Of a stretch of 64,000 nt of DNA, positions 2-21,441 are shown piece by piece (position 1 is the stretch's first letter; every line of letters starts with the position of its first letter). This DNA is from Promethearchaeota archaeon (GTDB lineage: Archaea; Asgardarchaeota; Lokiarchaeia; Sigyniarchaeales; SOKP01). The stretch spans positions 1-64,000 of the forward strand of contig JBHLNS010000012.1 in NCBI GenBank assembly GCA_048941285.1. Direction: 5' to 3'. The position numbers and the translations under genes were made by a program. A model generated the notes under the pieces. The model ran no database searches and was not told the DNA's origin. It saw nothing but the letters and a program-made list of their open reading frames with translations.

Positions 2-1708
2 GGATTATATTTTATTATTACTGGATTAGCTATAGCTGGTAAATTTGAGGAGGCGCTCAACTTTTTTGAAAAAGCTGAGTTAGTATTAAAATCTATTTCA
101 AATGTTTCTAAAGAAATTATAACTCAAAGAAAAGCTCGTTTAAGTGTAACAAAAGCCTTTATTGGATTACATGGTGGTAAAGTTGATTTAATTGAGAAGT
201 CTTTAGTGTGGATCTTAGATTCACAAGAAAAATCCGATAAATCATTCGAAATCGTCTGGGCTAATCTTATAATGGCGAGTTATTTACTTCGAGTAAAAAG
301 TAAGTTTGATCTTTGTAGGGAGCACCTCAAAAAAGCATTATCTCTTGCAAAGGAAATTAAATTTAATCAAACCTGGATTGCTCTGTGTCACCTCTATTTT
401 GGAGGATATTATGTATCTATTGGCGAAATGGATAAGAGCTTGAAACATAACATAAAGGGTTTAGAATTATTTAAAAAGATAAAGAGTGGTTTTAATATTG
501 CAATTTTATTAAATAATATTGGGAATTTATATGGTGAAATGGGTGAATATGAACTTGCTGTGGAACATTTAGAGGAGAGTATAAATCTTTTAGAGCAGCT
601 TCCTCAAGGTTTTTTTTCTATTAAAGGCAGTGTAGAAAGTTTAATAACTTTAGCCGTTGAACATGGAGATAACGAGCGGGCTCAAAAATATTTTCGTCGT
701 TTTGAAGATATTTATAAACAGAAAAGAGGCGATGGAATTGATCTTGGTTACAAATTTGCTAAAGCCCTAATTTTAAAAACAAGCTCTCGAATCCGAGATA
801 AAGCAAAAGCTGAAGAATTATTCAAAGAACTTATAGAAACTGATACGATAGCTTTTGATGTTATTATAAAAGTTCATATACATCTTTGTGACTTACTTCT
901 CATGGAATACCGTATTGATAATGATAGTGAGATTCTTGATGAAATTAATCATTACATAGCCAAATTATTAACTATCGCGGAGAAACAAAAGTCATATTTA
1001 GTTTTCTGTGAAATCTTCATACTTAAAGCTAGATTAGCTTTATTAAATTTTGATATAAAATCGGCTCGAATGTTTTTGACTCAAGCACAGAAGATTGCAG
1101 AAACATATAGCATGAAACGCTTAGCAATGAAAATTTCCTTTGAACATGATGAATTGCTTAAAAGCTTAAATTTATGGGAGAAGTTAAAGGAATCAGAGGC
1201 ACCCTTATCTGAACGCTGGAAACTTGCCAAATTAGATGAGCAAATAAAAAATATGGTAAAAAAAAGAAAAATCGAGACTCCAGAACTTTCCGATGAAGAA
1301 CCTGTTTTTCTTTTAATTGTAACGGAAGGTGGTATCCCTTTTTTCTCTGAATCATTTATAGTGGATAGGGCTTTTGAAGATCACCTTTTTGGAGGTTTTT
1401 TTATGGCTATCAATTCTTTTATTAATGAGGTATTTTCTGAAGGGCTCGATCGTGCTTCTTTTGGTGAATACACGCTCCTCATGAATTCTATTCCACCTTT
1501 TTTAATGTGTTACGTGTATAGAGGTCAATCTTATTCTGCTCAGAACCGAATGAAGTCATTTATAAATGAAATCAAAAATAAAGAAGAACTCTGGGAAACC
1601 TTTAAGAAATTTTATCAAATGAATAGGAAGGTTGACATAAGAGACATTCCTTCATTAGGATCTCTCATACAAGAGATTTTTATCCAAAAAAATCTCCATA
1701 AACACTAG
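2..1708 (+). CDS. TPR-repeat protein with C-terminal longin-like domain (5'-truncated by the window edge)
   Basis: The frame is open from nt 2 (GLYFIITGLAIAGKFEEAL...) and aligns with the paralog at 1769, so the GTG at 206 is internal. TPR motifs are present (LLNNIGNLYGEMGEYELAVEHLEESI). The C-terminus has a longin-like pattern (LLIVTEGGIPFFS...LFGGFFMAINSF...FLMCYVY). Confidence 0.85.
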   Translation, partial: GLYFIITGLAIAGKFEEALNFFEKAELVLKSISNVSKEIITQRKARLSVTKAFIGLHGGKVDLIEKSLVWILDSQEKSDKSFEIVWANLIMASYLLRVKSKFDLCREHLKKALSLAKEIKFNQTWIALCHLYFGGYYVSIGEMDKSLKHNIKGLELFKKIKSGFNIAILLNNIGNLYGEMGEYELAVEHLEESINLLEQLPQGFFSIKGSVESLITLAVEHGDNERAQKYFRRFEDIYKQKRGDGIDLGYKFAKALILKTSSRIRDKAKAEELFKELIETDTIAFDVIIKVHIHLCDLLLMEYRIDNDSEILDEINHYIAKLLTIAEKQKSYLVFCEIFILKARLALLNFDIKSARMFLTQAQKIAETYSMKRLAMKISFEHDELLKSLNLWEKLKESEAPLSERWKLAKLDEQIKNMVKKRKIETPELSDEEPVFLLIVTEGGIPFFSESFIVDRAFEDHLFGGFFMAINSFINEVFSEGLDRASFGEYTLLMNSIPPFLMCYVYRGQSYSAQNRMKSFINEIKNKEELWETFKKFYQMNRKVDIRDIPSLGSLIQEIFIQKNLHKH

Positions 1709-7496: not shown

Positions 7497-9305
7497 TTGT
7501 TTACTTTCTCTTTTATGACGCAACAAATCATCAAATGGGATTTAAGCGATTTTTATGTAAGTATAAACGATCCGCAAATTGAAAAGGATATTAAAGAATT
7601 AGAAAATTTAGCTGAAAATTTTTATCAAAAAGTCAAAGGAAGGTTAAAGGATCCCTCATTAACTTCAAAACTACTTCTAGAATTGTATAAAGAGTATGAA
7701 GCAATTTTAGAGAAATTATTTTACTTTGAAACTTATTCTACATTACTTTATAGAATTAATAGTCTAAATGATGATGTTAAATCTTTTTTCGCTAAAATAG
7801 ACGAATTTAAGGTTAAAATTCAACAAAAGCTTTTGTTTTTTGATTTAGAACTAAATGAAATTTCTGACACCAAATTTGAAGAATTCATTAATTCGCCAGA
7901 TTTGATAAATTATTCTCATGCTCTTAAATTCAATAGATTGAAAAAGCCACATCAACTCTCTGAAAAAGAAGAACAGATAATTTTAATGAAGGATATCACC
8001 GGAGTTAATGGATTCCAAAAGTTATATAGTGAATTAAAAAGTAGTTTCTTATTTGATTTTGAAATTGATGGAGAAGTAAAGCAGCTTACTGAAGCAGAAC
8101 TTTTTTCTTTTATGTATCAAGGAGACAAGGATCGTCGATATAAAGCCTTACAAACAATGATGAGTAAATACAAAGAACACGAAATGGTTTTTACACATAT
8201 TTATAATAATATCTTAAAAAACTGGGATTTAGAGTCCAAAAAGAAAAATTTTAAAAAGCCAATTTCCAGAAGAAACTTAGAAAACGAAGTTAGCGATGAA
8301 ATTGTTGAAATTCTTGGAGAGGTCACAACTGAAAGTTATCATATTGTTGAAAAATATTATAACATAAAAAGGAAACTCCTAAACCTTACTGAATTACATA
8401 TTTCTGATATATATTGTCCAGTTGGACAAGTTGTAAGGAGATACTCCTATCAAGAAGCTTTGGAATTGATAAAGGATTCAGTTACAAACTTTTATCCTGA
8501 ATTTAGAAATATTGTAGAAAAAATGGTCGAATTAAACCATATAGATGCTACACCAAGACAAGGAAAAAATAGAGGTGCTTTTTGTGCTCATGGAAAACAA
8601 AAACAATATGGATTTGTTTTTGTAAATTTTGAGAATACCGTGAGTTCAGTAAGTGCTTTAGCTCATGAACTTGGTCATGCTTTCCATGCTTACTATATAC
8701 AGCAAAATCAAAATTTTATGAATATAGATACTTCACTCGTCGTTGCAGAAATAGCTTCTGTATTTAATGAAATTTTAACTTTTGATTATTTAATGGAGAC
8801 AAATCTATCTAAAGAAGAAAAAATTTTGTTGCTTTGCACTTTTATTGAAAGAAATTTTAGCACTTCTCATAGACAAAATGCTTTCTATAGATTTGAAAAG
8901 GTTCTTCATGATTTATTAGAACAAAAGCTTCCTACCACTGAAGAATATCAAAACGCATTTGTGAAGGAAATTGAAATGATGTTTAGAAATTCTATAGTAA
9001 ATATTAAAGAAGAATATGCTACCTATTGTTTTGTTGTTTCACATTTTCTTCAAGTTCCTTTCTATGTCTATGCATATAATATGGCTAATCTTTTAGTAAT
9101 TTCAATTTATCAATTATATCTTGAGCAAAAGGAAGAATTTGTACCAAAATATCTAAAATTGCTGTGTATTGGGAGTTCACTTTCTCCAGAGGAAATGCTG
9201 TCTGAAATTGGCATAAATTTAAATGATCCATCATTTTGGGCAAAAGGAATTAAGTTTCTTTCGGATAAAATTGATGAGTTAGAATCTTTAGTTCAAAAAA
9301 ATTAA
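7497..9305 (+). CDS. pepF: Oligoendopeptidase F (M3B family)
   Basis: N-terminal WDLSDFY, PRQGKNRGAF, HELGH zinc motif, AEIAS..NE, and HF...FYVYAY. The true start may be the ATG of MTQQ. Confidence 0.9.
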   Translation: MFTFSFMTQQIIKWDLSDFYVSINDPQIEKDIKELENLAENFYQKVKGRLKDPSLTSKLLLELYKEYEAILEKLFYFETYSTLLYRINSLNDDVKSFFAKIDEFKVKIQQKLLFFDLELNEISDTKFEEFINSPDLINYSHALKFNRLKKPHQLSEKEEQIILMKDITGVNGFQKLYSELKSSFLFDFEIDGEVKQLTEAELFSFMYQGDKDRRYKALQTMMSKYKEHEMVFTHIYNNILKNWDLESKKKNFKKPISRRNLENEVSDEIVEILGEVTTESYHIVEKYYNIKRKLLNLTELHISDIYCPVGQVVRRYSYQEALELIKDSVTNFYPEFRNIVEKMVELNHIDATPRQGKNRGAFCAHGKQKQYGFVFVNFENTVSSVSALAHELGHAFHAYYIQQNQNFMNIDTSLVVAEIASVFNEILTFDYLMETNLSKEEKILLLCTFIERNFSTSHRQNAFYRFEKVLHDLLEQKLPTTEEYQNAFVKEIEMMFRNSIVNIKEEYATYCFVVSHFLQVPFYVYAYNMANLLVISIYQLYLEQKEEFVPKYLKLLCIGSSLSPEEMLSEIGINLNDPSFWAKGIKFLSDKIDELESLVQKN

Positions 9306-9319
9306 CTTTTTTCTTTTTT

Positions 9320-11263
9320 CTAAAAATTAGCCTCTAAATGTTCAATCTCAGCTAAAAATAAATCCGCAATTGTAACCCATTTTTTTTTTTCGTCAATATC
9401 ACTTAAAATATTTTCTGTAAGTTCTTTGCCTTTCTTAAGATACTCTACTGCTTTTTTATAATTTTCTAGTTCTTTATAACAAATCCCTATTTTTATGTTA
9501 GTTTGATAAACATACCAATCATTACTACCAATTTTTATTGCTTTTAAGAATTCTTCAATAGCATTCTTATATTCCTTGAAAAACATTAGAATTTCACCAT
9601 AACTGTCATGATATACTGCATTATTAGGAACTCGCCCTATAAGGTCTTGTATAATTTTTATGGATTCTTCTTTTTGGTTTAAATATTGCAACCAAAAGGC
9701 CTTATAATTGAGAAGATCGTTGTCTTCTGGCTGCTTTTCAAGTAGTTGATCGATAATTTCTAACCCAGATTTTACATTTTTCATTTCTTTAAGTACATAC
9801 GCTCTTTTGACCTGAATACTTTTCTCTTCACCTGGAAATTCTAAAAGCATTTTATCTAGAAATTCTAACAATTGCTTATATTCACCTTTATCACGTAAAA
9901 TTTTACTCTTAGAAAAATAAAGATCAATATTTTTGGGATTTGATTTTATAATTTCGTCAATATCTTTAATAGTATTACTAACTTCACTTTTTCTTCCGTT
10001 AAATGTAAATTCATAATCTTGGATTTCTTGCCAAATTAAACCTTCTAACTTATCATATGTATCGACTAGCATTTTTTCTTTTTCAATTTTATATGCTAGA
10101 TAATTAATATAACCTGGTAAAAATTTACGTAAAGAATTTTTTAACCCGTTATCGAAAAGATTGCCACAACTTTCCTCCAAGATAGCTGCAACTGTACTTT
10201 CCATAGTAAATGGAGATATTTCATTAGGTGTAGCTCCATATAAATTATTCAAATAAGAAAACCTAGTAATGTGATCCTCTACAATTGCATTTAGCATCCG
10301 TTCTAATTTCTCATTTGCTTGAAAGTAATATACTTCATTTTCGCTAAGTTCCAATTTAAAAAATTTGATTGGAAAAATATCTTCTTCAACTATTCTTAGT
10401 ATAATAAAATTGAGTTTAACATAATTCAAATTATATTTTTTAGAAAAATCCTCTGAAGAAATATAAAAAGGATATTGATCCGGATGATTTATTGCTAGAA
10501 ATAATAAAATTTTATGAAATTCTTCTTCTATTTCTAAAGAAGATTCTACTTTTTCATATGGTAATTTTAGTACATTATTTAGAAAACGAAATTTTATATT
10601 TTCATCTTTTATCTTATATTTCTTAAAGAAGTTAATTGTAGTTTTGGTTATTTCTTTAATGCGTTTACCTTCTTCCTCAAGGATCGATTGTCTGTCTAAA
10701 TCATATAATCTTAACATATTTGAGTATTCTAATTTCCCTAGTTGGGTAATCCTATATTTTTTATCTTCTTTTTGGACATAGTCTTGATTTATTAACAAAT
10801 TCATGTTTTTTGATAATGAAGATTGATTTATCTTCAGTGGGGTGTTAAGAAAATCCGCCCATTTACAAAAATTATTATTAAATAACATCCAGAGGATCCA
10901 ATGATTATAGTTTCGCTTTCTAAGAATCGCACCAGGAGGAAAACTTAACTGTCTTCTTTTACCTTTAGATTGAGTTAATTCATAAAATCGATTTCTGCCT
11001 TTAGATGTAATTTGATATTTATTATAAGCACTTTTATTGATATAATCATTTTCAATTAAGGTTTTTAAATAATTATATAGAGTGGATTTGGAGAATATTT
11101 GGTTAGATTCCAAATTTTTAATTTCTAAAAAGTTAGCGCTTGAGCAAGATTCATTATTATTTAACATCCAAAGTATAATAAGTTCAAATTTAGGCTTACT
11201 AATCCTGGAAGGGGGTTCTAAAATTTCTTTGGGAGGATAATTGATTATGTTTGCATTAATCAA
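9320..11263 (-). CDS. Tandem winged-helix plus TPR protein, paralog of 4429-6330
   Basis: Same architecture. Shared blocks include INQSSLSKNMNLLI, YDLDRQSIL, INHPDQYP, YINYLAYKIE and IADLFLAEI. Confidence 0.8.
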   Translation of the reverse strand: MINANIINYPPKEILEPPSRISKPKFELIILWMLNNNESCSSANFLEIKNLESNQIFSKSTLYNYLKTLIENDYINKSAYNKYQITSKGRNRFYELTQSKGKRRQLSFPPGAILRKRNYNHWILWMLFNNNFCKWADFLNTPLKINQSSLSKNMNLLINQDYVQKEDKKYRITQLGKLEYSNMLRLYDLDRQSILEEEGKRIKEITKTTINFFKKYKIKDENIKFRFLNNVLKLPYEKVESSLEIEEEFHKILLFLAINHPDQYPFYISSEDFSKKYNLNYVKLNFIILRIVEEDIFPIKFFKLELSENEVYYFQANEKLERMLNAIVEDHITRFSYLNNLYGATPNEISPFTMESTVAAILEESCGNLFDNGLKNSLRKFLPGYINYLAYKIEKEKMLVDTYDKLEGLIWQEIQDYEFTFNGRKSEVSNTIKDIDEIIKSNPKNIDLYFSKSKILRDKGEYKQLLEFLDKMLLEFPGEEKSIQVKRAYVLKEMKNVKSGLEIIDQLLEKQPEDNDLLNYKAFWLQYLNQKEESIKIIQDLIGRVPNNAVYHDSYGEILMFFKEYKNAIEEFLKAIKIGSNDWYVYQTNIKIGICYKELENYKKAVEYLKKGKELTENILSDIDEKKKWVTIADLFLAEIEHLEANF

Positions 11264-11913: not shown

Positions 11914-12474
11914 ATGAGTGGTTCAGGGGCAAAATTTAATTTTAAAATAACTGTAGTTGGAGATGGAAGAGTTGGAAAAACATCTCTTATTAAGAAATTT
12001 ACACAAGGTGGATTTCAAGAGGATTATATCAAGACAATAGGGGCTCAGTTTTCTGTATTCCTAAAAGAAATCAATGATGACGATATTAAATTATTATTTT
12101 GGGATATTGCAGGTCAAGATGATTTCAATTTTTTGCGTCCATCTTTTTTTAAAAATAGTAGAGCTGCGATAATAGTATATAGTCTTGAGGAAAATGATCT
12201 TGGTGAAGAAAGTTTCAACCATATCTCAAATTGGTATAATGACATCATTCAATTTTGTGGTAAAATTCCTGTAGTTTTATTTGCTAATAAAGTCGATTTA
12301 ATTGATGAAAATAGTTTAGATACATCAATTATTCAAAAAATAGTAAATAAACATAAATTTTTAGACTATTATATAACCTCAGCAAAAACAGGAAAAGGTG
12401 TCGTTGATGCATTTAATGCAATTATTAATGTATTATATGAGAAATATAAAGCTTTATCATCTGATATGGAATGA
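11914..12474 (+). CDS. Rab/Ras-like small GTPase, paralog of 3867-4421
   Basis: GDGRVGKT, YIKTIG, WDIAGQ, NKVD and TSAK motifs. Shares the E.NDLGEESF insert with the paralog. Confidence 0.95.
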   Translation: MSGSGAKFNFKITVVGDGRVGKTSLIKKFTQGGFQEDYIKTIGAQFSVFLKEINDDDIKLLFWDIAGQDDFNFLRPSFFKNSRAAIIVYSLEENDLGEESFNHISNWYNDIIQFCGKIPVVLFANKVDLIDENSLDTSIIQKIVNKHKFLDYYITSAKTGKGVVDAFNAIINVLYEKYKALSSDME

Positions 12475-12721
12475 TCTAATTCATCAGGGGAAAAATTCTG
12501 TATGAAATCACTTTTTTTATAAATTGGATATAAAATTTCCCTGATTTTCTAACACCGCCAAGTACATTTTTAATTAAATAACTAAAATCCTTTTAACATT
12601 TGTCCAATATAAGTCTGAGATTCCAATTAAAGTTCAGTACAGTAAACTAAAAATACAATCTTGATCTAATTATATTTATAGTCCAACATAAGAAAAATTG
12701 TTGTTAAGGAGGTGTTGAAAT

Positions 12722-12988
12722 CTGACTGAGAGTAAGCAAAATATAGTTTCCAATTTTAAGGAATTCTTCTATATATTTTACAAAGAAGAAGCCAAAGAAG
12801 AATTGAAGGATGTAAAAGAAAATACTCAATTTAAGGAATTTAAGACTTTAAATAAAAAAAGTGCTTCTACTAATAATGAAGTAGACCTTATAGAGAAGAA
12901 GAGGGCATTAAAAAGATGGAAACAATCTTTTAGTTATTATTGTTTGCATCCTGATAAATTCAGGTTTGGAATAAAAGATTTAAAATAA
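12722..12988 (+). CDS. Small hypothetical protein (about 88 aa if it starts at CTG 12722)
   Basis: AGGAGGTG Shine-Dalgarno 7 nt before an in-frame CTG, with an in-frame TGA just upstream. The ORF track starts it at TTG 12803. Confidence 0.55.
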   Translation: MTESKQNIVSNFKEFFYIFYKEEAKEELKDVKENTQFKEFKTLNKKSASTNNEVDLIEKKRALKRWKQSFSYYCLHPDKFRFGIKDLK

Positions 12989-13010
12989 CAAAATGGGGGG
13001 TGTATGAAAA

Positions 13011-13265
13011 ATGGTCCAAGTTTTAGATAAAAATAAAGAACTTAAGCATAGTCTAGTTTTGGAAGAAATTATAATTTTAGAAGAACTCCCTATAGAAGGG
13101 GAGTATGTCGAGGAATCTAAAGTTATCGAACATAAGAAACCACCAAAAAGAGTTTTATCAAAATTATTAAAAAAAGCAAAATTAAACGCTAATTATCTTA
13201 AAGAAATAGAAAGAATTGAAGATGTAAAAAACAAATTGAATTATAGAAATCGAGCAATTTTCTAG
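13011..13265 (+). CDS. Small hypothetical protein (84 aa)
   Basis: GGGGGTG Shine-Dalgarno-like sequence, ATG start, and co-directional with the previous ORF. Confidence 0.6.
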   Translation: MVQVLDKNKELKHSLVLEEIIILEELPIEGEYVEESKVIEHKKPPKRVLSKLLKKAKLNANYLKEIERIEDVKNKLNYRNRAIF

Positions 13266-13446
13266 AATTTTAATCTTAAGCCTTTTATTTTAAAAAAATA
13301 TAAATAAAAAAATGTAGAAAATCTATCAGTAATATTTTTTCTTTAATCTTTTTCTGAGAAGAATTAGGAAGTTTTTAAATATGACCTAACCATTTATTAA
13401 TATAGCAATTTTAAAGCGAAATCTAAAATTAATAGAGGTTATAAAA

Positions 13447-13674
13447 ATGAGTAAAAATTTAGAAGAAATAATTAATCAAAAATTTGGAGAAACTTACGGT
13501 CCAAAAATTAAGAAAGCATTGAAAGATGGATTAGAAGCTAATGATACTGAAGAACAATTGAAAAAGCGCTTATTGGGGGCTATTATTGACCCAACCCAAG
13601 TTAATCAAGAGCAAGCTAACGCAGTTTTCGATCTTGTTATTGTAGCTGAATGGATCACTTTTCGATCTCTATAG
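13447..13674 (+). CDS. 75-aa peptide, candidate RiPP precursor
   Basis: AGAGGT Shine-Dalgarno. Charged, helical-looking N-terminal region and a hydrophobic tail AVFDLVIVAEWITFRSL. Lies directly upstream of the radical SAM gene. Confidence 0.6.
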   Translation: MSKNLEEIINQKFGETYGPKIKKALKDGLEANDTEEQLKKRLLGAIIDPTQVNQEQANAVFDLVIVAEWITFRSL

Positions 13675-13746
13675 AAATAACTCCCATTTTTCTTTTTATA
13701 ATTTTTTCTTTTTGGATTAAGAAATTTCTAAAATTAGATTTTACAT

Positions 13747-16014
13747 GTGTATTTGAAATGTAATATTATAAGTGAATTTCTATTGAATGAGAATTATCTG
13801 GATATACTGATGGTTTTTCCTTCTGGTGGAGATTTTTATGTTCCTAATTTTACCTACAATTTAGGTGCAGCATATATAATAGCATATTTAAGGAAAAATG
13901 GATATGCTGCTGAACAGTTCATTGCAAATCAATCTTACAATGTAGAAGAATGCGTTAAATTATTATTAAAGTATAATCCAAAAATTATTGGTTTTACTGT
14001 TTATGATAGTAATTATATGCAATGTGCTTTGATAAGTAATGGATTGAAAGCCGTTAATTCTGAAGTTCTTATCATTTTTGGAGGACCTACTCCTAGTGTG
14101 CAATCTAGACAAATTTTAGAAAGAGTGAAAAGCGTTGATATCTGTGTTAAATGGGAAGGGGAGGAAACACTTCTTTCATTATTAAACCAATTATCACAAA
14201 ATGAATTCAAATTAAAAAATGTCGCTCTATTAAATATTAAAGGTATCTCATTTAGGATTGAAGGTAAAATTGTTATAAATCCTGATTCTCATGTGTTATT
14301 GCAAAATAGGTCCATCGATAATTATTTAGACAATTATCCATCTCCTTATCTTACAAAAATAATTCCAACTTCAGAAGCAGCCCGCACGGGGATGATCACT
14401 GCAAGAGGTTGTAATCAAAATTGTATTTATTGCAATAGTGCGGTTATCAGCAATAGAAACATCTTCTTTCATTCAATAGATAGAGTTATTGAAGAGTTGG
14501 AACTTCTCAATAAAAATTCAGATTTTATCGGGCCTGTTCCAATTATGGATGATGCTTTTACAATAATCCCAGATAGAGCAAGAAAGATATGTGAAAAAAT
14601 AATTGAAAATAAGATTAATATTCCATTAAGCTTCATAACTCGATGTGACAAGATTACTGAAGATTTACTAGACCTTATGAAGCAAGCGGGCTTTATGTCT
14701 GTTGGATTCTCTCTAGAAAGTGCTGTTCCGAGGGTCTTAAGAACGCTAGGCAAGGTAAATCCTCCAGATAGCAAAACAGATTTTAACAAGGAGAAGGAAT
14801 TCATTGAAAGATTGAAAAGAATGACTAGTTATGCGAAAAAGATAGGGTTTAGCCCCGTATTTGTCAGTATAATGGTAGGTTTACCTGGTGAATCACTTAA
14901 AGATGCAAAAAAAACAATGAAGCTAGTAAGTCAATTAAACATGGATTTCTATGCCCATAATTATCTACATATTTTTCAGGGGACTCCTCTCTATCAAAAT
15001 CATTTAAAATATGGATACGAAATAACTCCATGGGGGAAAAATAATAACGTCATAACACATAATAACTTCCCATTTGATATCAACAAGATAAAATTAGCAC
15101 CAAAATCTGAAATGGAGAGTAATCGTAAGGTTATTGATTATAAAAATCAAAAAATAATGTCATTAAAACCCAAACGAGTGGATTTGAAACCTTATTTTGA
15201 TAATGTAATTATTAACTCAGATATTATAAAGGATAATTTAGTCAAATGGATACAAGATAACCTTAAAATAAATGGAACAATCATTCATCTTTATTCAAAT
15301 AGAAAGAATTTCGACAAAAATAATATAAAAAATAATCAGGTCCTATATAACGATTTATCACCAACTATGTTTTATGAATGCTACTTCAGGGAATATTCAA
15401 GGAAAAAGTCTATTTTCAAATCAAAGATAATATCTTCATTAGGTGATCAAATTGGTTTATCTATTGTATTAAAAAACACTAATGTAGCTTTAGAAGAATA
15501 CAAAATAGGTAAAACTAATATGGAAAACACAATTTGTATAGATCGCGATGTTATTGACAGCCAATCACTTTACAATTATTTAATTAGGGTATTCAATAGT
15601 AAGGATCGTCTTAATTATTTACTAAAAAGCGCTCCATTGCCTCACTTTCAAAGTTTATGCAGATGGACCAGTGCCTACGCAAATTGTAAAAAATTAGAAA
15701 CAGTAATTATAGATCATGAAGACAATGTTAGATTTTGCTGGCAAATGGACCCAATCGGAAAAGTGGGAGATAATTTTAATAAAATCATAGAAAAATTACT
15801 CCAAATACATGAGGAACAAGTAAAAATAAGAGAATGTATTAGTTGTATTAGATATGAGACTTGTATAAAATGTCCATTTACTAACCCTTTATCAATTGAG
15901 GAATATTGCGAATTGAAACGTAAAAATAATACAATCAAATCCACTAAAATAATTAATTCTGTTGATATATTAAAAGATTTAATGTATAAGCAGATTAATC
16001 GATTTGATTTCTAA
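13747..16014 (+). CDS. B12-binding radical SAM protein with C-terminal SPASM-like Cys-rich domain
   Basis: Cobalamin-binding N-domain (NLGAAYIIAYLR, IIGFTVYD, IIFGGPTP, GEET). Radical SAM motif ARGCNQNCIYC and IMVGLPGE. C-terminal CRW..C..IID..NVRFC..PIGKV..CISC..TCIKC..YC. Confidence 0.88.
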   Translation: MYLKCNIISEFLLNENYLDILMVFPSGGDFYVPNFTYNLGAAYIIAYLRKNGYAAEQFIANQSYNVEECVKLLLKYNPKIIGFTVYDSNYMQCALISNGLKAVNSEVLIIFGGPTPSVQSRQILERVKSVDICVKWEGEETLLSLLNQLSQNEFKLKNVALLNIKGISFRIEGKIVINPDSHVLLQNRSIDNYLDNYPSPYLTKIIPTSEAARTGMITARGCNQNCIYCNSAVISNRNIFFHSIDRVIEELELLNKNSDFIGPVPIMDDAFTIIPDRARKICEKIIENKINIPLSFITRCDKITEDLLDLMKQAGFMSVGFSLESAVPRVLRTLGKVNPPDSKTDFNKEKEFIERLKRMTSYAKKIGFSPVFVSIMVGLPGESLKDAKKTMKLVSQLNMDFYAHNYLHIFQGTPLYQNHLKYGYEITPWGKNNNVITHNNFPFDINKIKLAPKSEMESNRKVIDYKNQKIMSLKPKRVDLKPYFDNVIINSDIIKDNLVKWIQDNLKINGTIIHLYSNRKNFDKNNIKNNQVLYNDLSPTMFYECYFREYSRKKSIFKSKIISSLGDQIGLSIVLKNTNVALEEYKIGKTNMENTICIDRDVIDSQSLYNYLIRVFNSKDRLNYLLKSAPLPHFQSLCRWTSAYANCKKLETVIIDHEDNVRFCWQMDPIGKVGDNFNKIIEKLLQIHEEQVKIRECISCIRYETCIKCPFTNPLSIEEYCELKRKNNTIKSTKIINSVDILKDLMYKQINRFDF

Positions 16015-16190
16015 TTAATTTATAAAATAAATATTTATATTTGAAAGAGAGATGAAGAAAAATGATTACTACAAAGTCTTTTAAACCAATTTTTCTTCTT
16101 TTTTCAAAAGAGTTCGAAAAATTTTTGTATTTAAAATTTCGAGATATCCATTAATTCAAATACTTGTGAGAAAAAAGGGAGATAATAAAA

Positions 16191-18266
16191 TTGCTTGATT
16201 CGAGTCTCAATGAATTAACCTCTATAGAACAATTAATATATAAATGCAAATTTAAACAGGCGCTTGAAAGAGTTGCACACTTCGAGAAGAAAAAAGAGAT
16301 TTCTTTAAAAGAAAAACTCTCAGCACTTATTTTAAAAGGGAAGATATATTATTTTAATGAACAGTATAAAAATGCTGTAGAAGTTGGTGAACTTGCTTAC
16401 AATTTGAGTCAAAAGTTAGGTATTGTTACTGAAACTATTAATGCTCTCTTAATTAAAGCACAAATTGTATTCACCGGAAAATTGGGAGAAGCACATAACT
16501 ATATTGAAGAAGCTGAAAATCTAATTAATCCCCTTATAAATAATTCCTCCTTTGATATTATTGAACAACAAGCAGATTTAATATTAATAAAATCTATAAT
16601 TTATCGCATTAGTAATGATCTTAACAAAGCATTAGAGCTAGCTTTAAAATGGCTTGAACTGAAGGAGAAAACAAGTAAAAAGCTCGAAACTTCACGCATT
16701 TATTGGCAACTGGGAGAAATCTTCCTTTATAAATCTGAACCTAATAGGGCTTTAGATTATGCTAAAAAAAGTTTAACAATTCAAAAGGAATTAAATAATC
16801 CTGTTGGTATTGCTACAAGTTTAAATCTAGTTGGTCTTACCTATTATAGTAAAGGTAACTTTAATCAGGCGTTAAAGTTTTGTAAGCAGAGTCTTACAAT
16901 TAAAGAAATAAGTGTTCGGACTAAAATTGATGCTTTACATAATTTAGGTGCTATCTACAAAGAAATGGGTGAGATAAATAGAACTCTACGGTATTATAAT
17001 AGAGCAATTGCACTTGCAGAAAAAGAAGATTATACTGAAAATTATATCATCAATGTTTTAGGAATTGGGACGATCTATAGAATGAAAGGAGAATATGTTA
17101 GAGCAATAGAATATTTTAAACATAGTTTAAAACTTTCTAAAAAAATCAAATCTCTATATGGAATGAGCGCTACCCTTTTTTATTTGGTATTAATTAGTAT
17201 TGATTTAAATAAACATCAGGAAGCACAGATATATGTATCTCAATTAGATGAACTCGCGACTCAAACAGGCAGTAATATATTTAAACAAGCCAATATTATT
17301 GCGAAGGCGTTAATCTTAAAGAAAAGTGGTCGCATAAGGAACCATACTGAAGCTGAAATGTTACTAAAAAAAATAACTGAAAAAGAAATAGCTACTCCTC
17401 AGTTGTATCTATTAGCATTTGTTAATTTATGTGAGTTATTCTTAAATGAGATGTCTATTACTAATAGTATGGATGCTTTGGATGAATTGAATCCATTACT
17501 TACACGTATATCTAAAATAGCAGAAAAACAAAATGCCTATTTATGGTTGGCAGAAATAAAACTCTTGCAAGCAAAACTTGCCTTAATTCAGATGAAAATC
17601 AAGGATGCTAAACAATTATTAACTTATTCTCAACAGATCGCGGAGATCCATGGTCTTAACTTGCTAGCGGTAAAAATCTCAAGCGAACATGATAATCTAT
17701 TAGATCAATTAAACGTATGGGACAATCTTGAGAAACAAAACGCTCCGTTAGCAGATAGAATAAAACTAGCATCTTTTGAAAGTGTTATTAATCGGATGCA
17801 GGGAAAAAGTGTTGTAGATCCTCCAAAATTAATTCATGAAATACCAGTCTTACTATTAATTATTGGGGAAGGAGGATTTCCTTTATTTTCTAATTCTTTT
17901 ACGAAAGAAATAGATTTTGAAGGTGATCTTATAAGTGGATTTTTAAGCGCATTCGATTCATTCAGTGGAGAACTTTTTGCGAAAAGGCTTGACCGAGCTA
18001 AATTTGGTGATTACATAATACTTATGCAAGCAGCTAATCCTTTTTCATTCTGCTATTTATTCAAAGGACAGACATATTTAGCTAGACAAAAATTAAAAAA
18101 ATTTGTTGATTCAATACAAAACTCGCAGAAAATTTGGGAGACAATAAATAATTATTATACTACTAATCGGGTCGTCGAACTAAAAGATCATCCTTCTATT
18201 GAGTTATTAATAAATGAGATTTTTATTAGAAAAATTCCTAAATTGATTGGAGATCAATCCTATTAA
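16191..18266 (+). CDS. TPR-repeat protein with C-terminal longin-like domain (third, more diverged paralog)
   Basis: Several TPRs. C-terminal PVLLLIIGEGGFPLFS...LISGFLSAFDSF...LDRAKFG...FCYLFKGQTY. Confidence 0.87.
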   Translation: MLDSSLNELTSIEQLIYKCKFKQALERVAHFEKKKEISLKEKLSALILKGKIYYFNEQYKNAVEVGELAYNLSQKLGIVTETINALLIKAQIVFTGKLGEAHNYIEEAENLINPLINNSSFDIIEQQADLILIKSIIYRISNDLNKALELALKWLELKEKTSKKLETSRIYWQLGEIFLYKSEPNRALDYAKKSLTIQKELNNPVGIATSLNLVGLTYYSKGNFNQALKFCKQSLTIKEISVRTKIDALHNLGAIYKEMGEINRTLRYYNRAIALAEKEDYTENYIINVLGIGTIYRMKGEYVRAIEYFKHSLKLSKKIKSLYGMSATLFYLVLISIDLNKHQEAQIYVSQLDELATQTGSNIFKQANIIAKALILKKSGRIRNHTEAEMLLKKITEKEIATPQLYLLAFVNLCELFLNEMSITNSMDALDELNPLLTRISKIAEKQNAYLWLAEIKLLQAKLALIQMKIKDAKQLLTYSQQIAEIHGLNLLAVKISSEHDNLLDQLNVWDNLEKQNAPLADRIKLASFESVINRMQGKSVVDPPKLIHEIPVLLLIIGEGGFPLFSNSFTKEIDFEGDLISGFLSAFDSFSGELFAKRLDRAKFGDYIILMQAANPFSFCYLFKGQTYLARQKLKKFVDSIQNSQKIWETINNYYTTNRVVELKDHPSIELLINEIFIRKIPKLIGDQSY

Positions 18267-18370: not shown

Positions 18371-19906
18371 ATAAAGATTCGCACGTTCGAACAATATGTT
18401 GAAGATTTAAAAAAAATGAAGCCGAATGTTTATATCGGTGAAGAAAAGGTAGGTAGGGATGACCCTCGTATCCAAGGAGGAATGAACATTATTAAAGAAA
18501 CTTTTGATCGTGCTCATGATCCAGAATATGAAGATTTATGCACAGCAACCTCACACTTAACTGGTAAAACTATAAATCGTTTTTGTCACATACACCAGAG
18601 TGAAGAAGATCTGCTAAAAAAGCAGAAAATGACTCGACTTTTATGTCATCGGGTTGGTGGGTGTATTCAGCGATGTATGGGAATTGATGCTATGAATGCG
18701 CTCTCAATTATTACTTATGAGATGGATCAAGCGCTCGGAACCGATCATTATAAGAGATTTTTGAAGTATTTAGAATATTTTCAAGATAGGGATATAGTGG
18801 CAAGTTGTGCGCAAACAGATGCTAAAGGAGATCGCTTAAAAAGACCCCATCAACAAGAAGACCCAGATCAATATTTAAGAGTTGTTGAAACTAGAAAAGA
18901 TGGCATTATTGTAAGAGGTTGTAAAATTAATATTACTAATACTCCCTATGCTGATGAGTTTATTGTTGTTCCATGTAGGTATATGGGTCCTGAAGATAAG
19001 GATTATGCTGTAGCATTTGCCTTACCTGGTGATTGGGAAGGAGTTAAATTACTAACTAGGCCAGCATATTATAGAAAAAGTGAGTTTATGAATGCTCCAG
19101 GATTAAAAATGGGAGATGCCGAAACATTCATCATCTTTGATGATGTTTTTGTTCCTAATGAACGAGTTTTTCTAAATGGCAATGCTGATCCGCGACAAAC
19201 TCCTTATGCTGGATTTTTAGCCCTAACTTTTGCTCATTATCATCGTCACACTTATACTGGCTGTAAACCAGCGATGTCGGAAGTTTTAGCCTCTGCTGCT
19301 GCTTTAGTTGCAGAATATAATGGTATTGAAAAAGCTTCTCATGTCCAAGATAAACTATCTCATATTATTGGGATTGCTGAACTAGTTTTTGCAGCTGGTG
19401 AATCAAGCGCTAAACATTCAGAAAAGTCTCCCTCTGGTACCCAAATTCCAGATGAAATACTTACAAATGCAGGTAGACGTTTAGCGGGAGAAAATATATA
19501 TGAAGAATACAGAATATTGGCAGATTTATCTGGAGGTTTGATTGCTACTTTACCTTATGAAGGATCGTTCTTCTCGGAAGAAGTAGGGGATCTTGCGATG
19601 AAATATCTAAAAAGAAACCCACGAGTTAAACCAGAATATATCTATCGTTGTTTTCGGGGCATTGAAGGAATGGTAGTATCCGATTTAGGGGGTTTAATGC
19701 AAGTTGCAGGAGTTCATGGTGGTGGATCTCCCCAAATGGAAACAATAACTATGATGATGCGTTATGATACTGAAAGACTTAAAGATATTTCAAAATATCT
19801 TTTTGGTATTAAATCTAAATTAAAAAAATACGAAAGGCCTACCGTCACTCCTCGGAAAATGTTGGAAAAATTTGGAAAAACGATGCAACGGAAGGATAAA
19901 AAATAA
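18371..19906 (+). CDS. abfD: 4-hydroxybutyryl-CoA dehydratase / 4-hydroxyphenylacetate 3-hydroxylase family protein
   Basis: GGCIQRCMGID, AQTDAKGDR, HRHTYTGCK and HGGGSPQ motifs. The family-type N-terminus (IRTFEQYVEDLKKM) lies upstream of ATG 18416, reaching back to ATA 18371. Confidence 0.85.
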   Translation: MKIRTFEQYVEDLKKMKPNVYIGEEKVGRDDPRIQGGMNIIKETFDRAHDPEYEDLCTATSHLTGKTINRFCHIHQSEEDLLKKQKMTRLLCHRVGGCIQRCMGIDAMNALSIITYEMDQALGTDHYKRFLKYLEYFQDRDIVASCAQTDAKGDRLKRPHQQEDPDQYLRVVETRKDGIIVRGCKINITNTPYADEFIVVPCRYMGPEDKDYAVAFALPGDWEGVKLLTRPAYYRKSEFMNAPGLKMGDAETFIIFDDVFVPNERVFLNGNADPRQTPYAGFLALTFAHYHRHTYTGCKPAMSEVLASAAALVAEYNGIEKASHVQDKLSHIIGIAELVFAAGESSAKHSEKSPSGTQIPDEILTNAGRRLAGENIYEEYRILADLSGGLIATLPYEGSFFSEEVGDLAMKYLKRNPRVKPEYIYRCFRGIEGMVVSDLGGLMQVAGVHGGGSPQMETITMMMRYDTERLKDISKYLFGIKSKLKKYERPTVTPRKMLEKFGKTMQRKDKK

Positions 19907-20904: not shown

Positions 20905-21441
20905 TCACCTATTACCAGTTTTTTCTAATGTTATCTCAGTAAGAACTTTAAAAGCATCATCTACATTGATATTCTCTTTAGCCGAAATTTCAACAAAACT
21001 TGCCATATCATTTTTTTCAGCAATTTGGATTCCATATTCTCTTTGGACTTCTCGTTGAGATTTTTCAAGGTCTAATTTTGAGCCAACTAGCATAATAGGT
21101 ATTTGCCCTCCTTTTTGTCTTACAATTGTGATCCATTCTGAAATATTATCTAAAGTAGAGGGTCTGGTGATATCGTATAGTAAAAAGGCAGCATTCGCCC
21201 CTAAACAATATGTTGGTAAGAGAAATCTAAATCTCTCTTCACCTCCAACATCCCATAATTGTAATTTTATTCTTTTATAATTTAACTCGATTGTCTTGAC
21301 GTGAAAATCTACACCAATCGTCAATCTTTCGCTCGGGTTGAAAATGTTATAACAATAGCGTTTTGTGAAAGATGTTTTGCCTACTGAAGCATCACCAAGT
21401 AATAAAATTTTATATGTATAATCATAATTCGCCATTTTCAT
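20905..21441 (-). CDS. Rab-like small GTPase
   Basis: GDASVGKT, TIGVDF, KLQLWDVGGEERF, LLYDIT, SKLD and EISAK motifs. Confidence 0.95.
   Translation of the reverse strand: MKMANYDYTYKILLLGDASVGKTSFTKRYCYNIFNPSERLTIGVDFHVKTIELNYKRIKLQLWDVGGEERFRFLLPTYCLGANAAFLLYDITRPSTLDNISEWITIVRQKGGQIPIMLVGSKLDLEKSQREVQREYGIQIAEKNDMASFVEISAKENINVDDAFKVLTEITLEKTGNR

What the first reader, a model, noticed from the sequence alone, without database searches (positions are those of the whole stretch)
13447..16014. Candidate Asgard RiPP system: 75-aa precursor plus a B12-radical SAM-SPASM maturase
Seen: a short gene with its own Shine-Dalgarno encodes a charged, helical-looking region and a Val/Ile/aromatic tail (AVFDLVIVAEWITFRSL). 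Next to it is a 755-aa protein combining a cobalamin-binding domain, a CxxxCxxC core, ~150 unexplained residues and a SPASM-like Cys cluster. Known: class B radical SAM enzymes (e.g. PoyB/PoyC) C-methylate Val/Ile in peptide cores, and SPASM domains mark peptide maturases. Having both in one chain is uncommon. Inference: a two-gene peptide-modification system in an Asgard archaeon, with the middle region possibly binding the leader. No dedicated exporter or leader protease is adjacent.
Basis: partly seen in the sequence, partly recalled or inferred. Interest (0 to 1): 0.85.

Follow-up and report, generated by a model that had tools for sequence, protein, structure and literature searches.

The report
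Peptide, radical SAM enzyme, TPR partner
A small gene and the large iron-sulfur enzyme gene beside it always travel together, in Asgard archaea and in several bacterial phyla, and look like a previously undescribed peptide-modification system that also keeps a sensor-like repeat protein next to it.

Summary
The 75-aa ORF (13447-13674) and the B12-binding radical SAM gene (13747-16014) are real and linked. A 62-100 aa same-strand ORF lies just upstream of the enzyme in 21 of 21 Asgard loci with enough flank, and beside it in bacterial homolog loci. In Acidobacteriota it lies downstream. A peptide profile hits exactly the 16 of 61 related genomes that hold the enzyme, and 0 of the other 45. The peptides share a conserved helical N-terminal part and a variable hydrophobic tail; 44 of 141 end in Gly. 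Three Asgard genomes and one Aminicenantes locus carry tandem copies. A complex prediction supports binding through the leader part (0.65, best control 0.00).

The enzyme's last 326 residues carry seven near-invariant Cys with SPASM-like spacing. Their nearest structural matches are SPASM/twitch radical SAM enzymes (Z 5.2-6.7), but no SPASM HMM matches.

A third partner is conserved: a TPR protein in Asgard loci, and in 11 of 17 bacterial loci a membrane TPR protein with a kinase or TIR-like head.

No Pfam or NCBIfam family and no paper I found covers the system. The chemistry is untested; C-methylation or a crosslink in the tail is my inference. I rate it a new variant of a known kind.

The parts
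13434..13439 (+). Shine-Dalgarno-like AGAGGT, 7 nt before the ATG of the small gene
   Evidence: Read directly. Weak on its own in DNA of 26% G+C.
13447..13674 (+). Small gene, 75 aa: candidate precursor peptide, member of an uncurated family of 60-110 aa proteins
   Evidence: ORF. Top hit in its own genome for an Asgard-only profile that excludes it (E 2.1e-8). The family has 146 representatives at E<=1e-3. Three strain variants inside the ORF all fall on third codon positions.
13447..13617 (+). Leader-like part, residues 1-57: conserved, charged and helical, with a near-invariant Gly (G14)
   Evidence: Column entropy is low in the N-terminal part of 141 family members. G14 is nearly invariant. 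All confident contacts in the complex model lie in residues 1-61.
13618..13671 (+). Core-like tail, residues 58-75: variable and hydrophobic, containing the W-I-T motif
   Evidence: In the family the last 16 residues have entropy 3.5-4.0 bits. They are enriched in W (5.6x), P (4x), V (2.3x) and H (2.2x), and depleted in K and E (0.3x). The boundary with the leader is my estimate.
13675..13746 (+). Spacer with oligo-T runs directly after the small gene's stop: possible archaeal terminator or attenuator
   Evidence: A T5+ run lies within 50 nt of the stop in 19 of 21 Asgard loci, against 202 of 1050 random 50-nt windows from the same loci. The control covers whole loci, not intergenic DNA only.
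13747..16014 (+). B12-binding radical SAM enzyme with a C-terminal SPASM-like module. Longest ORF 755 aa; the likely start is TTG 13783 or ATG 13810.
   Evidence: It is a full-length family of about 735-745 aa across Asgard archaea and bacteria.
13843..14181 (+). Cobalamin (B12)-binding domain
   Evidence: Pfam PF02310, 53 bits against cutoff 32.1, residues 33-145.
14392..14928 (+). Radical SAM core; CxxxCxxC at 14410-14433
   Evidence: Pfam PF04055, 70 bits against cutoff 29.5. The three Cys are invariant in 35 sequences. The PDB profile search hits AprD4, CysS, OxsB and TokK.
15034..16011 (+). C-terminal module of 326 aa: an alpha/beta part plus a Cys-rich part, resembling a radical SAM barrel with SPASM but without its own CxxxCxxC
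   Evidence: AlphaFold2 model, pLDDT 86.5. The top 11 of 48,161 chains by VIA-align are all SPASM/twitch-type radical SAM enzymes, Z 5.2-6.7; the next row has Z 4.1. Foldseek finds nothing.
15658..15909 (+). Eight-Cys cluster with SPASM-like spacing; seven are near-invariant
   Evidence: Alignment of 33 sequences. No SPASM HMM hit.
15949..16011 (+). C-terminal helices that contact the leader in the complex model
   Evidence: Interface residues 714-734 in 734-aa numbering, with expected error under 2 A for the best pairs.
16191..18266 (+). TPR protein of 691 aa with an unassigned C-terminal domain of about 170 aa: probable third component
   Evidence: TPR families. A homolog is adjacent in 21 of 22 Asgard loci. 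Copies of at least 50% identity occur only in genomes that hold the enzyme.

Best explanation
The 75-aa gene encodes the substrate of the enzyme next door. The substrate is a precursor peptide with a folded, helical N-terminal leader of about 55 residues and a short, variable, hydrophobic C-terminal core.

The enzyme is a hybrid. Its front part is a cobalamin-binding class B radical SAM core. Its rear part is a second barrel-like module without its own radical SAM cluster, ending in a SPASM-like pair of auxiliary iron-sulfur sites.

The rear module and the C-terminal helices hold the leader, and the tail is fed to the radical SAM/B12 site. There one or more unactivated carbons of the tail are altered. 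The tail motif is aromatic-x-Thr/Val/Ile-aliphatic-Gly in many Asgard members, and W-I-T in this window.

My best guess for the chemistry is B12-dependent C-methylation. The second guess is a carbon-carbon crosslink between the aromatic residue and the residue two places on.

The product probably acts through the TPR protein that is kept beside the pair, as its ligand.

Shown here: the gene pair is conserved and co-distributed, the peptide has a leader/core pattern, and the enzyme has the domains and Cys pattern described. Supported by a model only: binding through the leader. Inferred: that the tail is modified, what the modification is, and the role of the TPR protein.
For: 1. Position. In all 14 related genomes fetched, plus the window, a 72-98 aa ORF lies directly upstream on the same strand. 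In the public loci this holds for 21 of 21 Asgard loci with at least 410 nt of upstream sequence.

2. Co-distribution. The enzyme is in 16 of 61 related genomes. The peptide profile hits those same 16 and 0 of the other 45.

3. Homology across domains.
- An Asgard-only profile run against 1084 ORFs of 17 bacterial loci hits 10 loci. Each hit is next to the enzyme and none lies elsewhere.
- A bacteria-only profile run against 741 ORFs of 22 Asgard loci hits 7 loci, all directly upstream.

4. Changed gene order. In the enzyme clade at about 30% identity the small ORF lies downstream. L069 is significant (E 0.0025, 4e-4). L066, L068, L070 and L073 are similar by eye only.

5. Leader/core pattern. 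In 141 family members the N-terminal columns are conserved and the tail is variable and hydrophobic. 44 of 141 end in Gly.

6. Tandem copies. These occur in G016, G028 and G025 and in L058.

7. Complex prediction. Median ipSAE is 0.65 (runs 0.59, 0.65, 0.72) and the best of 3 controls is 0.00. In the tool's calibration the mark was reached by 58 of 80 solved complexes and 2 of 110 mismatched pairs. The runs agree in at least 40% of contacts and the partner's pLDDT is at least 62. All confident contacts use peptide residues 1-61. My own alignments were used, so the calibration counts hold only roughly.

8. Enzyme. B12-binding and Radical_SAM domains score above their cutoffs. Seven Cys are near-invariant in SPASM-like spacing. 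The nearest structures to the C-terminal module are anSMEcpe, SuiB, ChlB, BtrN, CteB, PqqE and TigE; several of these entries' titles name peptide (RiPP) maturation.

9. Purifying selection. Three strain variants fall inside the ORF, all on third codon positions: two synonymous and one Glu to Asp. The 72-nt spacer after the ORF carries five variants.

10. A relative in a recognisable peptide setting. L061 has two more B12 radical SAM genes and a 73-aa ORF with a weak NHLP-related match (E 0.038, below cutoff).
Against: - No modification has been observed, and no RNA run holds the locus, so expression is unknown.
- No leader peptidase, exporter or RRE (PqqD-like) domain lies in or beside the pair.
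- The SPASM assignment fails by HMM: 0 of 33 in Pfam at E<=1, and nothing in NCBIfam.
- Foldseek finds nothing (best E 0.059). The VIA Z scores of 5.2-6.7 lie below the value of about 8 that the tool itself calls safe.
- The peptides are very divergent. The window's own sequence finds a relative in only 2 of 61 genomes. The cross-domain profiles miss 15 of 22 Asgard loci and 7 of 17 bacterial loci.
- The profile used was built partly from loci of the same genomes. Its 16 hits are therefore partly by construction; only the 0 of 45 is independent.
- 14 of the 15 related genomes with the pair are of one genus, so their synteny is not independent evidence.
- A leader-like helical unit also occurs as repeats in unrelated larger proteins (P0121, P0145, P0237). 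Some of the 146 family hits may therefore be chance likeness.
- The complex score is the model's own confidence, not a measurement.
Confidence: 0.62

Rival explanations
1. The small protein is not a substrate. It is an accessory subunit or adaptor of the enzyme, for instance one that recruits another substrate such as the TPR protein, or that regulates the enzyme.
For: Binding is supported only for the N-terminal 61 residues, and the tail is not placed with confidence. No protease or exporter is present. The leader-like unit occurs as a repeat in other proteins, as a small folded domain would. A TPR protein is always nearby.
Against: An accessory subunit would not be expected to have a hypervariable C-terminal tail with a conserved N-terminus. 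It would also not be expected in tandem divergent copies. The enzyme's closest structural relatives act on peptides.
Confidence: 0.17
2. The peptide is modified, but by chemistry other than methylation. The enzyme would make a carbon-carbon or carbon-heteroatom crosslink, or epimerise residues. In that case B12 serves radical chemistry and the auxiliary clusters serve as in SPASM crosslinking enzymes.
For: A B12 radical SAM enzyme crosslinks ortho-Tyr side chains in biphenomycin-like peptides (abstract of PMC12257519). The B12 radical SAM enzyme QCMT also epimerises residues (passage of PMC13469106). Many Asgard tails have an aromatic residue two places before a Thr/Val/Ile. That spacing recalls three-residue cyclophane motifs; this comparison is recalled, not tested. 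The nearest folds of the C-terminal module are crosslinking SPASM enzymes.
Against: Many of the named B12-binding radical SAM families that match weakly are methyltransferases by their NCBIfam names. Bacterial tails often lack the aromatic-x-Thr pattern. No data discriminate between the two chemistries.
Confidence: 0.3
3. The enzyme acts on a non-peptide substrate such as a lipid, cofactor or sugar. The small gene and the TPR gene are only syntenic neighbours.
For: The best NCBIfam rows include lipid, hopanoid, bacteriochlorophyll and phosphonate enzymes, all far below cutoff. Most Asgard loci come from one genus.
Against: The pairing survives across two domains, several phyla and a change of gene order. 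It shows 0 of 45 in genomes without the enzyme. The complex prediction passes its controls.
Confidence: 0.05
4. The 75-aa ORF is a chance open frame in AT-rich DNA.
For: Short ORFs are common, and there is no RNA evidence.
Against: See: a family of 146 representatives, profile hits only beside the enzyme, and strain variants on third codon positions.
Confidence: 0.01

Closest known systems
Proteusin-type systems: long NHLP/Nif11 leaders with B12 radical SAM C-methyltransferases (PoyA with PoyB/PoyC; NCBIfam TIGR03975 'RiPP maturation radical SAM C-methyltransferase'). The Poy names are recalled.
   Same: A long, folded-looking leader of about 55 residues. A core rich in Val, Ile, Thr, Ala and Gly. 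A class B radical SAM enzyme. One relative (L061) sits with a weakly NHLP-like precursor and extra B12 radical SAM genes.
   Different: The leaders match no NHLP/Nif11 model: at most 1 of 29 peptides matched any NCBIfam or Pfam family, and none of those families is NHLP or Nif11. The enzyme scores 61 bits against TIGR03975's cutoff of 282. It carries an extra 326-aa barrel-plus-SPASM-like module. No epimerase, protease or transporter accompanies it.
Radical SAM-SPASM peptide maturases and relatives (anSMEcpe 4k36, SuiB 5v1q, ChlB 9gm3, CteB 5wgg, PqqE 6c8v, TigE 8vpo)
   Same: The C-terminal 326 residues align to nearly whole chains of these enzymes: Z 5.7-6.7, 214-238 residues, rmsd 4.8-5.7. 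Seven conserved Cys have similar spacing.
   Different: That module has no CxxxCxxC of its own. The active radical SAM core is a separate class B domain in front of it. No SPASM HMM matches. No N-terminal RRE is present. RadicalSAM.org lists 'B12-binding' and 'SPASM/twitch' as separate subgroups (passages of PMC9477430).
B12 radical SAM enzymes with solved structures (AprD4 6fd2, CysS 9n1b, OxsB 5ul2, TokK 7kdx)
   Same: The profile of the family matches them over the B12 and radical SAM parts, E 1e-19 to 1e-13.
   Different: None matches the C-terminal module: no PDB sequence hit better than E 0.1. As I recall, their substrates are not ribosomal peptides.
ApyD (NCBIfam NF050148, 'RiPP biosynthesis radical SAM protein ApyD') and PbsB of the biphenomycin pathway
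   Same: ApyD is the best or second-best NCBIfam row for family members (95-111 bits). PbsB is a B12 radical SAM enzyme acting on a ribosomal peptide, in a cluster that also holds a TPR protein (PMC12257519: abstract, passages).
   Different: The scores are far below ApyD's cutoff of 750, and the match covers only the N-terminal half. The precursor family and cluster content are different (no MNIO). The TPR protein there is described as an arginase.
Peptide-pheromone systems with TPR receptors (RRNPP family; streptococcal radical SAM peptide operons under Rgg control). Recalled, not tested here.
   Same: A small peptide gene, a radical SAM enzyme and a TPR protein lie side by side. In the Asgard loci a winged-helix plus TPR protein (9320-11263) is also conserved nearby.
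   Different: The TPR partners here have other outputs: a Ser/Thr kinase, a TIR-like head or an unassigned C-terminal domain. The bacterial ones are single-pass membrane proteins. No export or import genes are present. The receptor role is entirely inferred.

Membership tests
Class B (cobalamin-binding) radical SAM enzymes | N-terminal B12-binding domain (Pfam PF02310) above the curated cutoff | tested here: met
   53 bits against cutoff 32.1, residues 33-145
Class B (cobalamin-binding) radical SAM enzymes | Radical SAM core with a CxxxCxxC motif | tested here: met
   PF04055 scores 70 bits against cutoff 29.5. The three Cys are invariant in 35 sequences.
Class B (cobalamin-binding) radical SAM enzymes | Binds cobalamin and uses it in catalysis | not testable with these tools
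   Needs purified protein
SPASM domain (Pfam PF13186 / TIGR04085; accessions recalled) | Match to the SPASM profile | tested here: not met
   0 of 33 C-terminal modules match in Pfam at E<=1. No such row appears in NCBIfam at E<=0.1.
SPASM domain (Pfam PF13186 / TIGR04085; accessions recalled) | Seven-Cys motif C-x9-15-G-x4-C ... C-x2-C-x5-C-x3-C ... C (motif recalled) | tested here: inconclusive
   The observed near-invariant pattern is C-x16-C ... C-x2-C-x5-C-x2-C ... x11-C, plus an eighth Cys. The number and order are the same. Two spacings differ, and the Gly is replaced.
SPASM domain (Pfam PF13186 / TIGR04085; accessions recalled) | Fold like solved SPASM/twitch enzymes | tested here: inconclusive
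   The top 11 of 48,161 chains are all of this kind, but Z is only 5.2-6.7. Foldseek finds nothing.
RiPP precursor and maturase pair | Small gene next to the modifying enzyme, conserved across relatives | tested here: met
   21 of 21 Asgard loci with flank. 10 of 17 bacterial loci by an independent profile. Present in 16 of 16 genomes with the enzyme and 0 of 45 without it.
RiPP precursor and maturase pair | Conserved leader and variable core | tested here: met
   Entropy profile of 141 members
RiPP precursor and maturase pair | The enzyme binds the leader | tested here: inconclusive
   Prediction only: 0.65 against a best control of 0.00, with contacts in peptide residues 1-61
RiPP precursor and maturase pair | Core residues are chemically modified | not testable with these tools
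   Needs co-expression and mass spectrometry
RiPP precursor and maturase pair | Leader peptidase and/or exporter in the cluster | tested here: not met
   None lies between 9320 and 20900. An M3 peptidase lies 4 kb upstream. An M4 peptidase lies downstream in L058 only.
RiPP recognition element (PqqD-like RRE) | Winged-helix RRE domain in the enzyme or a partner | tested here: inconclusive
   No PqqD-type Pfam row at E<=0.1 or E<=1 for the C-terminal module. No RRE-specific tool was on hand.
Proteusins (NHLP/Nif11 leader) | The leader matches NHLP or Nif11 models | tested here: not met
   None of 29 peptides matches such a model. Only the odd L061 ORF gives a sub-threshold NHLP-related hit.
PoyB/PoyC-like RiPP C-methyltransferases (TIGR03975) | Score above the model's cutoff | tested here: not met
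   61 bits against cutoff 281.85; 54-76 bits for three bacterial members

The most novel reading that the evidence does not exclude
The three genes form a peptide-signal module shared by Asgard archaea and bacteria. A radical-SAM-modified peptide would be the ligand of a TPR sensor whose output part is swapped between lineages. The output is a Ser/Thr kinase in Acidobacteriota, a TIR-like head in Bacteroidales, and a soluble TPR protein with a Roadblock-like tail in Asgard archaea. In most Asgard loci that TPR protein sits among Ras-like GTPase and winged-helix-TPR genes. In Asgard archaea this would give the expanded, eukaryote-like GTPase/TPR signalling repertoire its first candidate small-molecule input.
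Probability: 0.25. Interest if true: 0.9.

Novelty: new variant of a known kind. Interest (0 to 1): 0.72.

Why it matters
If the peptide is modified, three things follow.

First, this is a new RiPP-like family with its own leader type. Its maturase joins two radical SAM lineages that are normally classed apart: the B12-binding group and the SPASM group. That makes it a fresh case for radical SAM enzymology. One question is what auxiliary clusters do beside cobalamin. Another is what a barrel without its own cluster is for.

Second, it would be a rare case of a peptide-modification system that is widespread in Asgard archaea yet shared with several bacterial phyla. It could therefore be studied in tractable bacteria.

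Third, the constant company of TPR proteins with signalling heads points to a signalling or conflict role rather than a plain antibiotic. In Asgard archaea that would make the function of part of their very large TPR/GTPase gene families testable.

Tried and rejected
- Single-sequence search with the 75-aa protein: only 2 of 61 genomes. This looked like a refutation until upstream ORFs were read directly and a profile was used.
- Foldseek of the C-terminal model against the PDB: no match (best E 0.059).
- PDB sequence searches with the C-terminal module, the TPR C-terminal domain and the peptide profile: nothing meaningful.
- Rfam on 12400-16300: no RNA family.
- PADLOC: only generic domain hits (kinase, TPR and a B12 radical SAM candidate family at 70 bits), so this gives no basis for calling it a defence system.
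- BLASTP between the Asgard TPR protein and a Bacteroidales partner: no match. Profile comparison: 95.6% probability, but over the TPR repeats only. Common descent of the partners beyond being TPR proteins is therefore not shown.
- ESM Atlas on the TPR protein's C-terminal 171 residues: leads only, all below 0.9. A 'Roadblock/LAMTOR2' cluster scored 0.79. The Roadblock-like label is therefore unconfirmed.
- TIR in the Bacteroidales partners: only sub-threshold (17.6 bits against cutoff 28).
- The 84-aa neighbour (13011-13265) as part of the system: rejected. It occurs in 22 of 61 genomes, including 11 without the enzyme.
- Expression: no RNA holder was listed. Laying DNA contigs says nothing about expression.
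- Careful tree: not finished in 291 s, so only the quick tree was used.
  - The Asgard sequences lie on one side of a branch (SH-aLRT 89, not starred).
  - That branch lies inside a starred set that also holds Bacteroidales and a Desulfobacteraceae sequence.
  - The root is midpoint only, so no direction of transfer is claimed.
  - L073 was left out as truncated.
- Rows dropped: 8 of the 47 loci (L072, L074-L080) were not analysed for peptides. Their matches cover only the N-terminal B12/radical SAM part (at most 514 of 734 residues), so they are other class B enzymes or cut contigs.
- Literature: five searches found no paper on this enzyme-peptide family.
  - I read passages of PMC13635244, bioRxiv 10.64898/2026.07.27.741052, PMC10352776, PMC13469106, PMC9477430 and PMC12257519, plus the abstract of the last.
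  - Subscription papers were not searchable. An example is the 2022 JACS atlas of radical SAM RiPPs, seen only as a reference.
  - Supplements were closed and not asked for; they may hold this family.

Full report
WHAT IS THERE. The window is contig C92 of an Asgard genome of 3.55 Mb and about 30% G+C. Homologs of the large protein carry names such as Hodarchaeota, Promethearchaeota, Thorarchaeota and Lokiarchaeota.

The 75-aa ORF (13447-13674, +) and the large ORF (13747-16014, +) are as described. AGAGGT lies 7 nt before the small gene's ATG.

The large ORF is 755 aa from GTG 13747. The public call is 734 aa from ATG 13810. Homologs start 9-10 residues before the shared MVFPSGG motif, which would fit TTG 13783.

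Pfam finds a B12-binding domain and a radical SAM core above their cutoffs, and nothing in the last 326 residues. NCBIfam gives only far sub-threshold rows. The best are PhpK (109 bits, cutoff 600) and ApyD (95 bits, cutoff 750). The small protein matches nothing in either library.

IS THE SMALL GENE REAL, AND IS IT TIED TO THE ENZYME? A search with the 75-aa sequence alone found it in only 2 of 61 related genomes, whereas the enzyme is in 16 of 61. That looked bad for the finding.

Reading the DNA upstream of the enzyme in the 14 other genomes changed the picture. Every one has a 72-98 aa ORF directly upstream on the same strand. These ORFs share an N-terminal pattern and have a hydrophobic C-terminal end. 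Three genomes have two tandem copies.

A scan of one genome per species found 47 loci. I analysed 39 of them and dropped 8 whose match covers only the N-terminal part of the enzyme.
- Of 22 Asgard loci, 21 have at least 410 nt of upstream sequence, and all 21 carry such an ORF. The 22nd (L051) has only 270 nt upstream.
- The Bacteroidales and Aminicenantes loci, whose enzymes are 37-43% identical to the window's, have one as well. L058 has two.

Independent profiles confirm homology.
- A profile built from 23 Asgard peptides, without the window's, ranks the window's ORF first among 11,961 ORFs of its own genome plus the bacterial loci (E 2.1e-8). The next six hits are the bacterial upstream ORFs. 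There is no second copy in the genome.
- In the stricter cross test the Asgard profile hits 10 of 17 bacterial loci, and a bacterial profile hits 7 of 22 Asgard loci. Every hit lies beside the enzyme on its strand, with none elsewhere. The misses show how far the peptides have diverged.
- In the enzyme clade at about 30% identity (Acidobacteriota and a deltaproteobacterium) the small ORF lies directly downstream instead. This is significant for L069 and by eye only for L066, L068, L070 and L073.
- A profile search of the 61 relatives hits exactly the 16 genomes that have the enzyme and none of the other 45. The 16 are partly by construction, since the profile contains sequences from such loci. 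The 0 of 45 is not by construction.

Against 1.84 billion representative proteins the profile finds 146 at E<=1e-3, and 142 of these are no longer than 120 aa. No Pfam or NCBIfam family covers them: at most 1 of 29 matches any family.

One population contig differs from the window at three places inside the ORF, all on third codon positions. Two changes are synonymous and one is Glu to Asp. The 72-nt spacer behind the ORF carries five differences. The sample is small but fits purifying selection.

ANATOMY OF THE PEPTIDE FAMILY. In 141 members the first 45-50 aligned columns hold the conserved positions, including a near-invariant Gly. The last 16 residues are variable, with 3.5-4.0 bits of entropy per position. 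They are enriched in Trp, Pro, Val, His, Phe and Ile and depleted in Lys and Glu. 44 of 141 members end in Gly, and 25 of those end in Val-Gly.

Many Asgard members end with aromatic-x-Thr/Val/Ile-aliphatic-Gly. The window's tail has W-I-T followed by four more residues, like two other members.

A conserved leader, a variable core and tandem copies are the usual marks of a precursor peptide. This is established knowledge of RiPP systems.

An oligo-T run follows the small gene's stop in 19 of 21 Asgard loci. The figure is 19% (202 of 1050) for random 50-nt windows of the same loci. Archaeal transcription is known to stop at such tracts, so the small gene may be transcribed in excess of the enzyme. 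The control is crude, because it uses whole loci rather than spacers.

A caution: leader-like units also occur as repeats in three unrelated larger proteins.

THE ENZYME. The family is full-length (about 735-745 aa) across Asgard lineages and bacteria. The CxxxCxxC motif is invariant. The N-terminal two thirds match solved class B enzymes: AprD4, CysS, OxsB and TokK.

The last 326 residues carry seven near-invariant Cys in the order and roughly the spacing of a SPASM domain, plus an eighth Cys that Acidobacteriota lack.

Folded alone with 33 sequences, this part gives a confident model (pLDDT 86.5). Foldseek finds nothing for it. The aligner that does not lean on Foldseek ranks 11 radical SAM enzymes of the SPASM/twitch kind on top of 48,161 chains. 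These include anSMEcpe, SuiB, ChlB, BtrN, CteB, PqqE and TigE, at Z 5.2-6.7. The next, unrelated row has Z 4.1.

The alignments span nearly the whole target chains, barrel included. The 'unexplained' residues plus the Cys cluster therefore look like a second radical SAM-type barrel with SPASM that has lost its own cluster motif. The Z values are below what the tool calls safe, and no SPASM HMM matches. I call the module SPASM-like, not SPASM.

In the classification used by RadicalSAM.org, B12-binding and SPASM/twitch enzymes are separate subgroups.

DO THEY BIND? The one complex job went to the enzyme (35-row alignment) plus the peptide (29 rows). The median score was 0.65 (runs 0.59, 0.65, 0.72), and the best of three controls was 0.00. 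In the tool's calibration the mark was reached by 58 of 80 solved complexes and 2 of 110 mismatched pairs. The runs agree in at least 40% of contacts, and the partner's pLDDT is at least 62.

All confident contacts use peptide residues 1-61. On the enzyme (734-aa numbering) they lie in:
- the last 21 residues;
- residues 567-571 and 601-609, at the end of the barrel-like part;
- a few residues of the true radical SAM barrel (237-242, 272, 296-297, 346-349).

This is a model's confidence obtained with my own alignments. It supports binding through the leader and does not show it. It says nothing certain about the tail.

A THIRD PARTNER. A homolog of the 691-aa TPR protein downstream (16191-18266) is adjacent in 21 of 22 Asgard loci. 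The exception, L063, has no downstream sequence. In the distant Lokiarchaeum ossiferum locus it lies upstream, at 31% identity.

The protein belongs to a very large paralog family, with 8 matches in the window's genome and matches in 42 of 61 genomes. Copies of at least 50% identity, however, occur in all 14 same-genus genomes that have the enzyme. They occur in none of the 22 that lack it; the closest case is G018 at 49%, a genome only 79% complete.

In bacteria, 11 of 17 loci have a homologous large partner.
- It has a variable N-terminal head. This is a Ser/Thr kinase in the Acidobacteriota and deltaproteobacterial loci. In Bacteroidales it is TIR-like, below threshold only.
- It has one strong hydrophobic segment, in 9 of 9 aligned members.
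- It has a TolB_N-like stretch and then TPR repeats.

The Asgard protein has no such segment, and its C-terminal 170 residues are unassigned. The Asgard and bacterial partners resemble each other only in their TPR parts.

Other Asgard neighbours are conserved in most close loci but absent from the Lokiarchaeum locus. These are a Ras-like GTPase, a winged-helix-TPR protein and two small ORFs. The 84-aa ORF among them also occurs in 11 genomes without the enzyme. I do not count these neighbours as parts of the system.

HOW IT MOST LIKELY WORKS. The leader docks on the C-terminal module, and the tail enters the B12/radical SAM site. A carbon of the tail is then methylated, or less likely crosslinked or epimerised. 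B12 radical SAM enzymes do all three on peptides or proteins: see the abstract of PMC12257519 and a passage of PMC13469106.

The auxiliary clusters may pass electrons or shape the peptide site. The product probably meets the TPR protein. Whether it does so as a signal, and on which side of the membrane, is open. The bacterial partners' layout (head, one membrane segment, then TPR) suggests an outward-facing sensor, which would need export of the peptide. No exporter is seen.

WHAT IT IS NOT, AND WHAT SPEAKS AGAINST IT. It is not a member of any curated family I could test: not TIGR03975, not ApyD, not NHLP/Nif11 and not SPASM by HMM. No protease, exporter or RRE is present. There is no expression evidence. 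The fold match is middling. Most Asgard loci come from one genus, so their synteny is not independent evidence.

The cross-domain conservation, the changed gene order and the strict co-distribution carry the argument.

NOVELTY. Five literature searches found nothing on this family. Subscription papers and supplements could not be seen. I rate it a new variant of a known kind: a radical SAM peptide-modification system with a new leader family, a hybrid B12/SPASM-like maturase and a conserved TPR signalling-type partner, shared between Asgard archaea and bacteria.

On a quick tree the Asgard enzymes fall on one side of a branch, inside a set that also holds bacterial sequences. The root is midpoint only, so one transfer between the domains is likely but its direction is open.

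Noticed in passing
window 12803-12988 and 13011-13265: Two small ORFs (61 and 84 aa) between the Ras-like GTPase and the peptide gene are conserved at 45-74% identity in most Asgard loci and have no Pfam match. The 84-aa ORF is in 22 of 61 related genomes, 11 of them without the enzyme, so it is an independent conserved small gene of unknown function.
   Followed up: partly
window 293-1690, 2219-3700, 16191-18266; genome-wide: The TPR protein belongs to a very large paralog family: 8 matches in this genome and 19 listed in some relatives. The paralog at 2219-3700 gives a sub-threshold hit to the ComR peptide-receptor TPR model (22.6 bits, cutoff 26.5).
   Followed up: partly
window 18416-19906: The HpaB-family gene downstream is 91-96% identical in protein across 7 loci (71% in an eighth), while its neighbours there are only about 51-74% identical. 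It is far more conserved than anything around it.
   Followed up: no
window 7497-9305; L046, L063: An M3 oligopeptidase F gene lies 4 kb upstream here, and it lies directly upstream of the small-ORF block in L046 and L063. It is a possible, untested candidate for a leader peptidase.
   Followed up: no
L061:14-5414 and L071:617-4620: In a Desulfobacteraceae locus and an Aminicenantes locus the enzyme sits beside one or two further B12 radical SAM genes. In L061 a 73-aa ORF overlaps the enzyme's stop; it has a Gly-Ala-Gly motif, a Val/Thr/Ile/Ser-rich end and a weak NHLP-related match.
   Followed up: partly
L058:1192-1716 and 4538-6082: The Aminicenantes locus has two nearly identical tandem peptide genes and a secreted-type M4 (thermolysin-like) peptidase gene downstream of the enzyme.
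   Followed up: no
proteins P0145, P0237, P0121: Larger proteins carry three to seven repeats that match the leader profile. The leader may derive from, or resemble, a more general small helical unit.
   Followed up: no
window 13650-13763: A 37-aa ORF in another frame overlaps the end of the peptide gene and the spacer. It lies in AT-rich DNA and I did not check it for conservation; it is probably chance.
   Followed up: no
window 11914-12474 and 20905-21441: Two Ras-family small GTPase genes flank the region. The first is conserved upstream of the cluster in most close Asgard loci but not in Lokiarchaeum ossiferum.
   Followed up: partly
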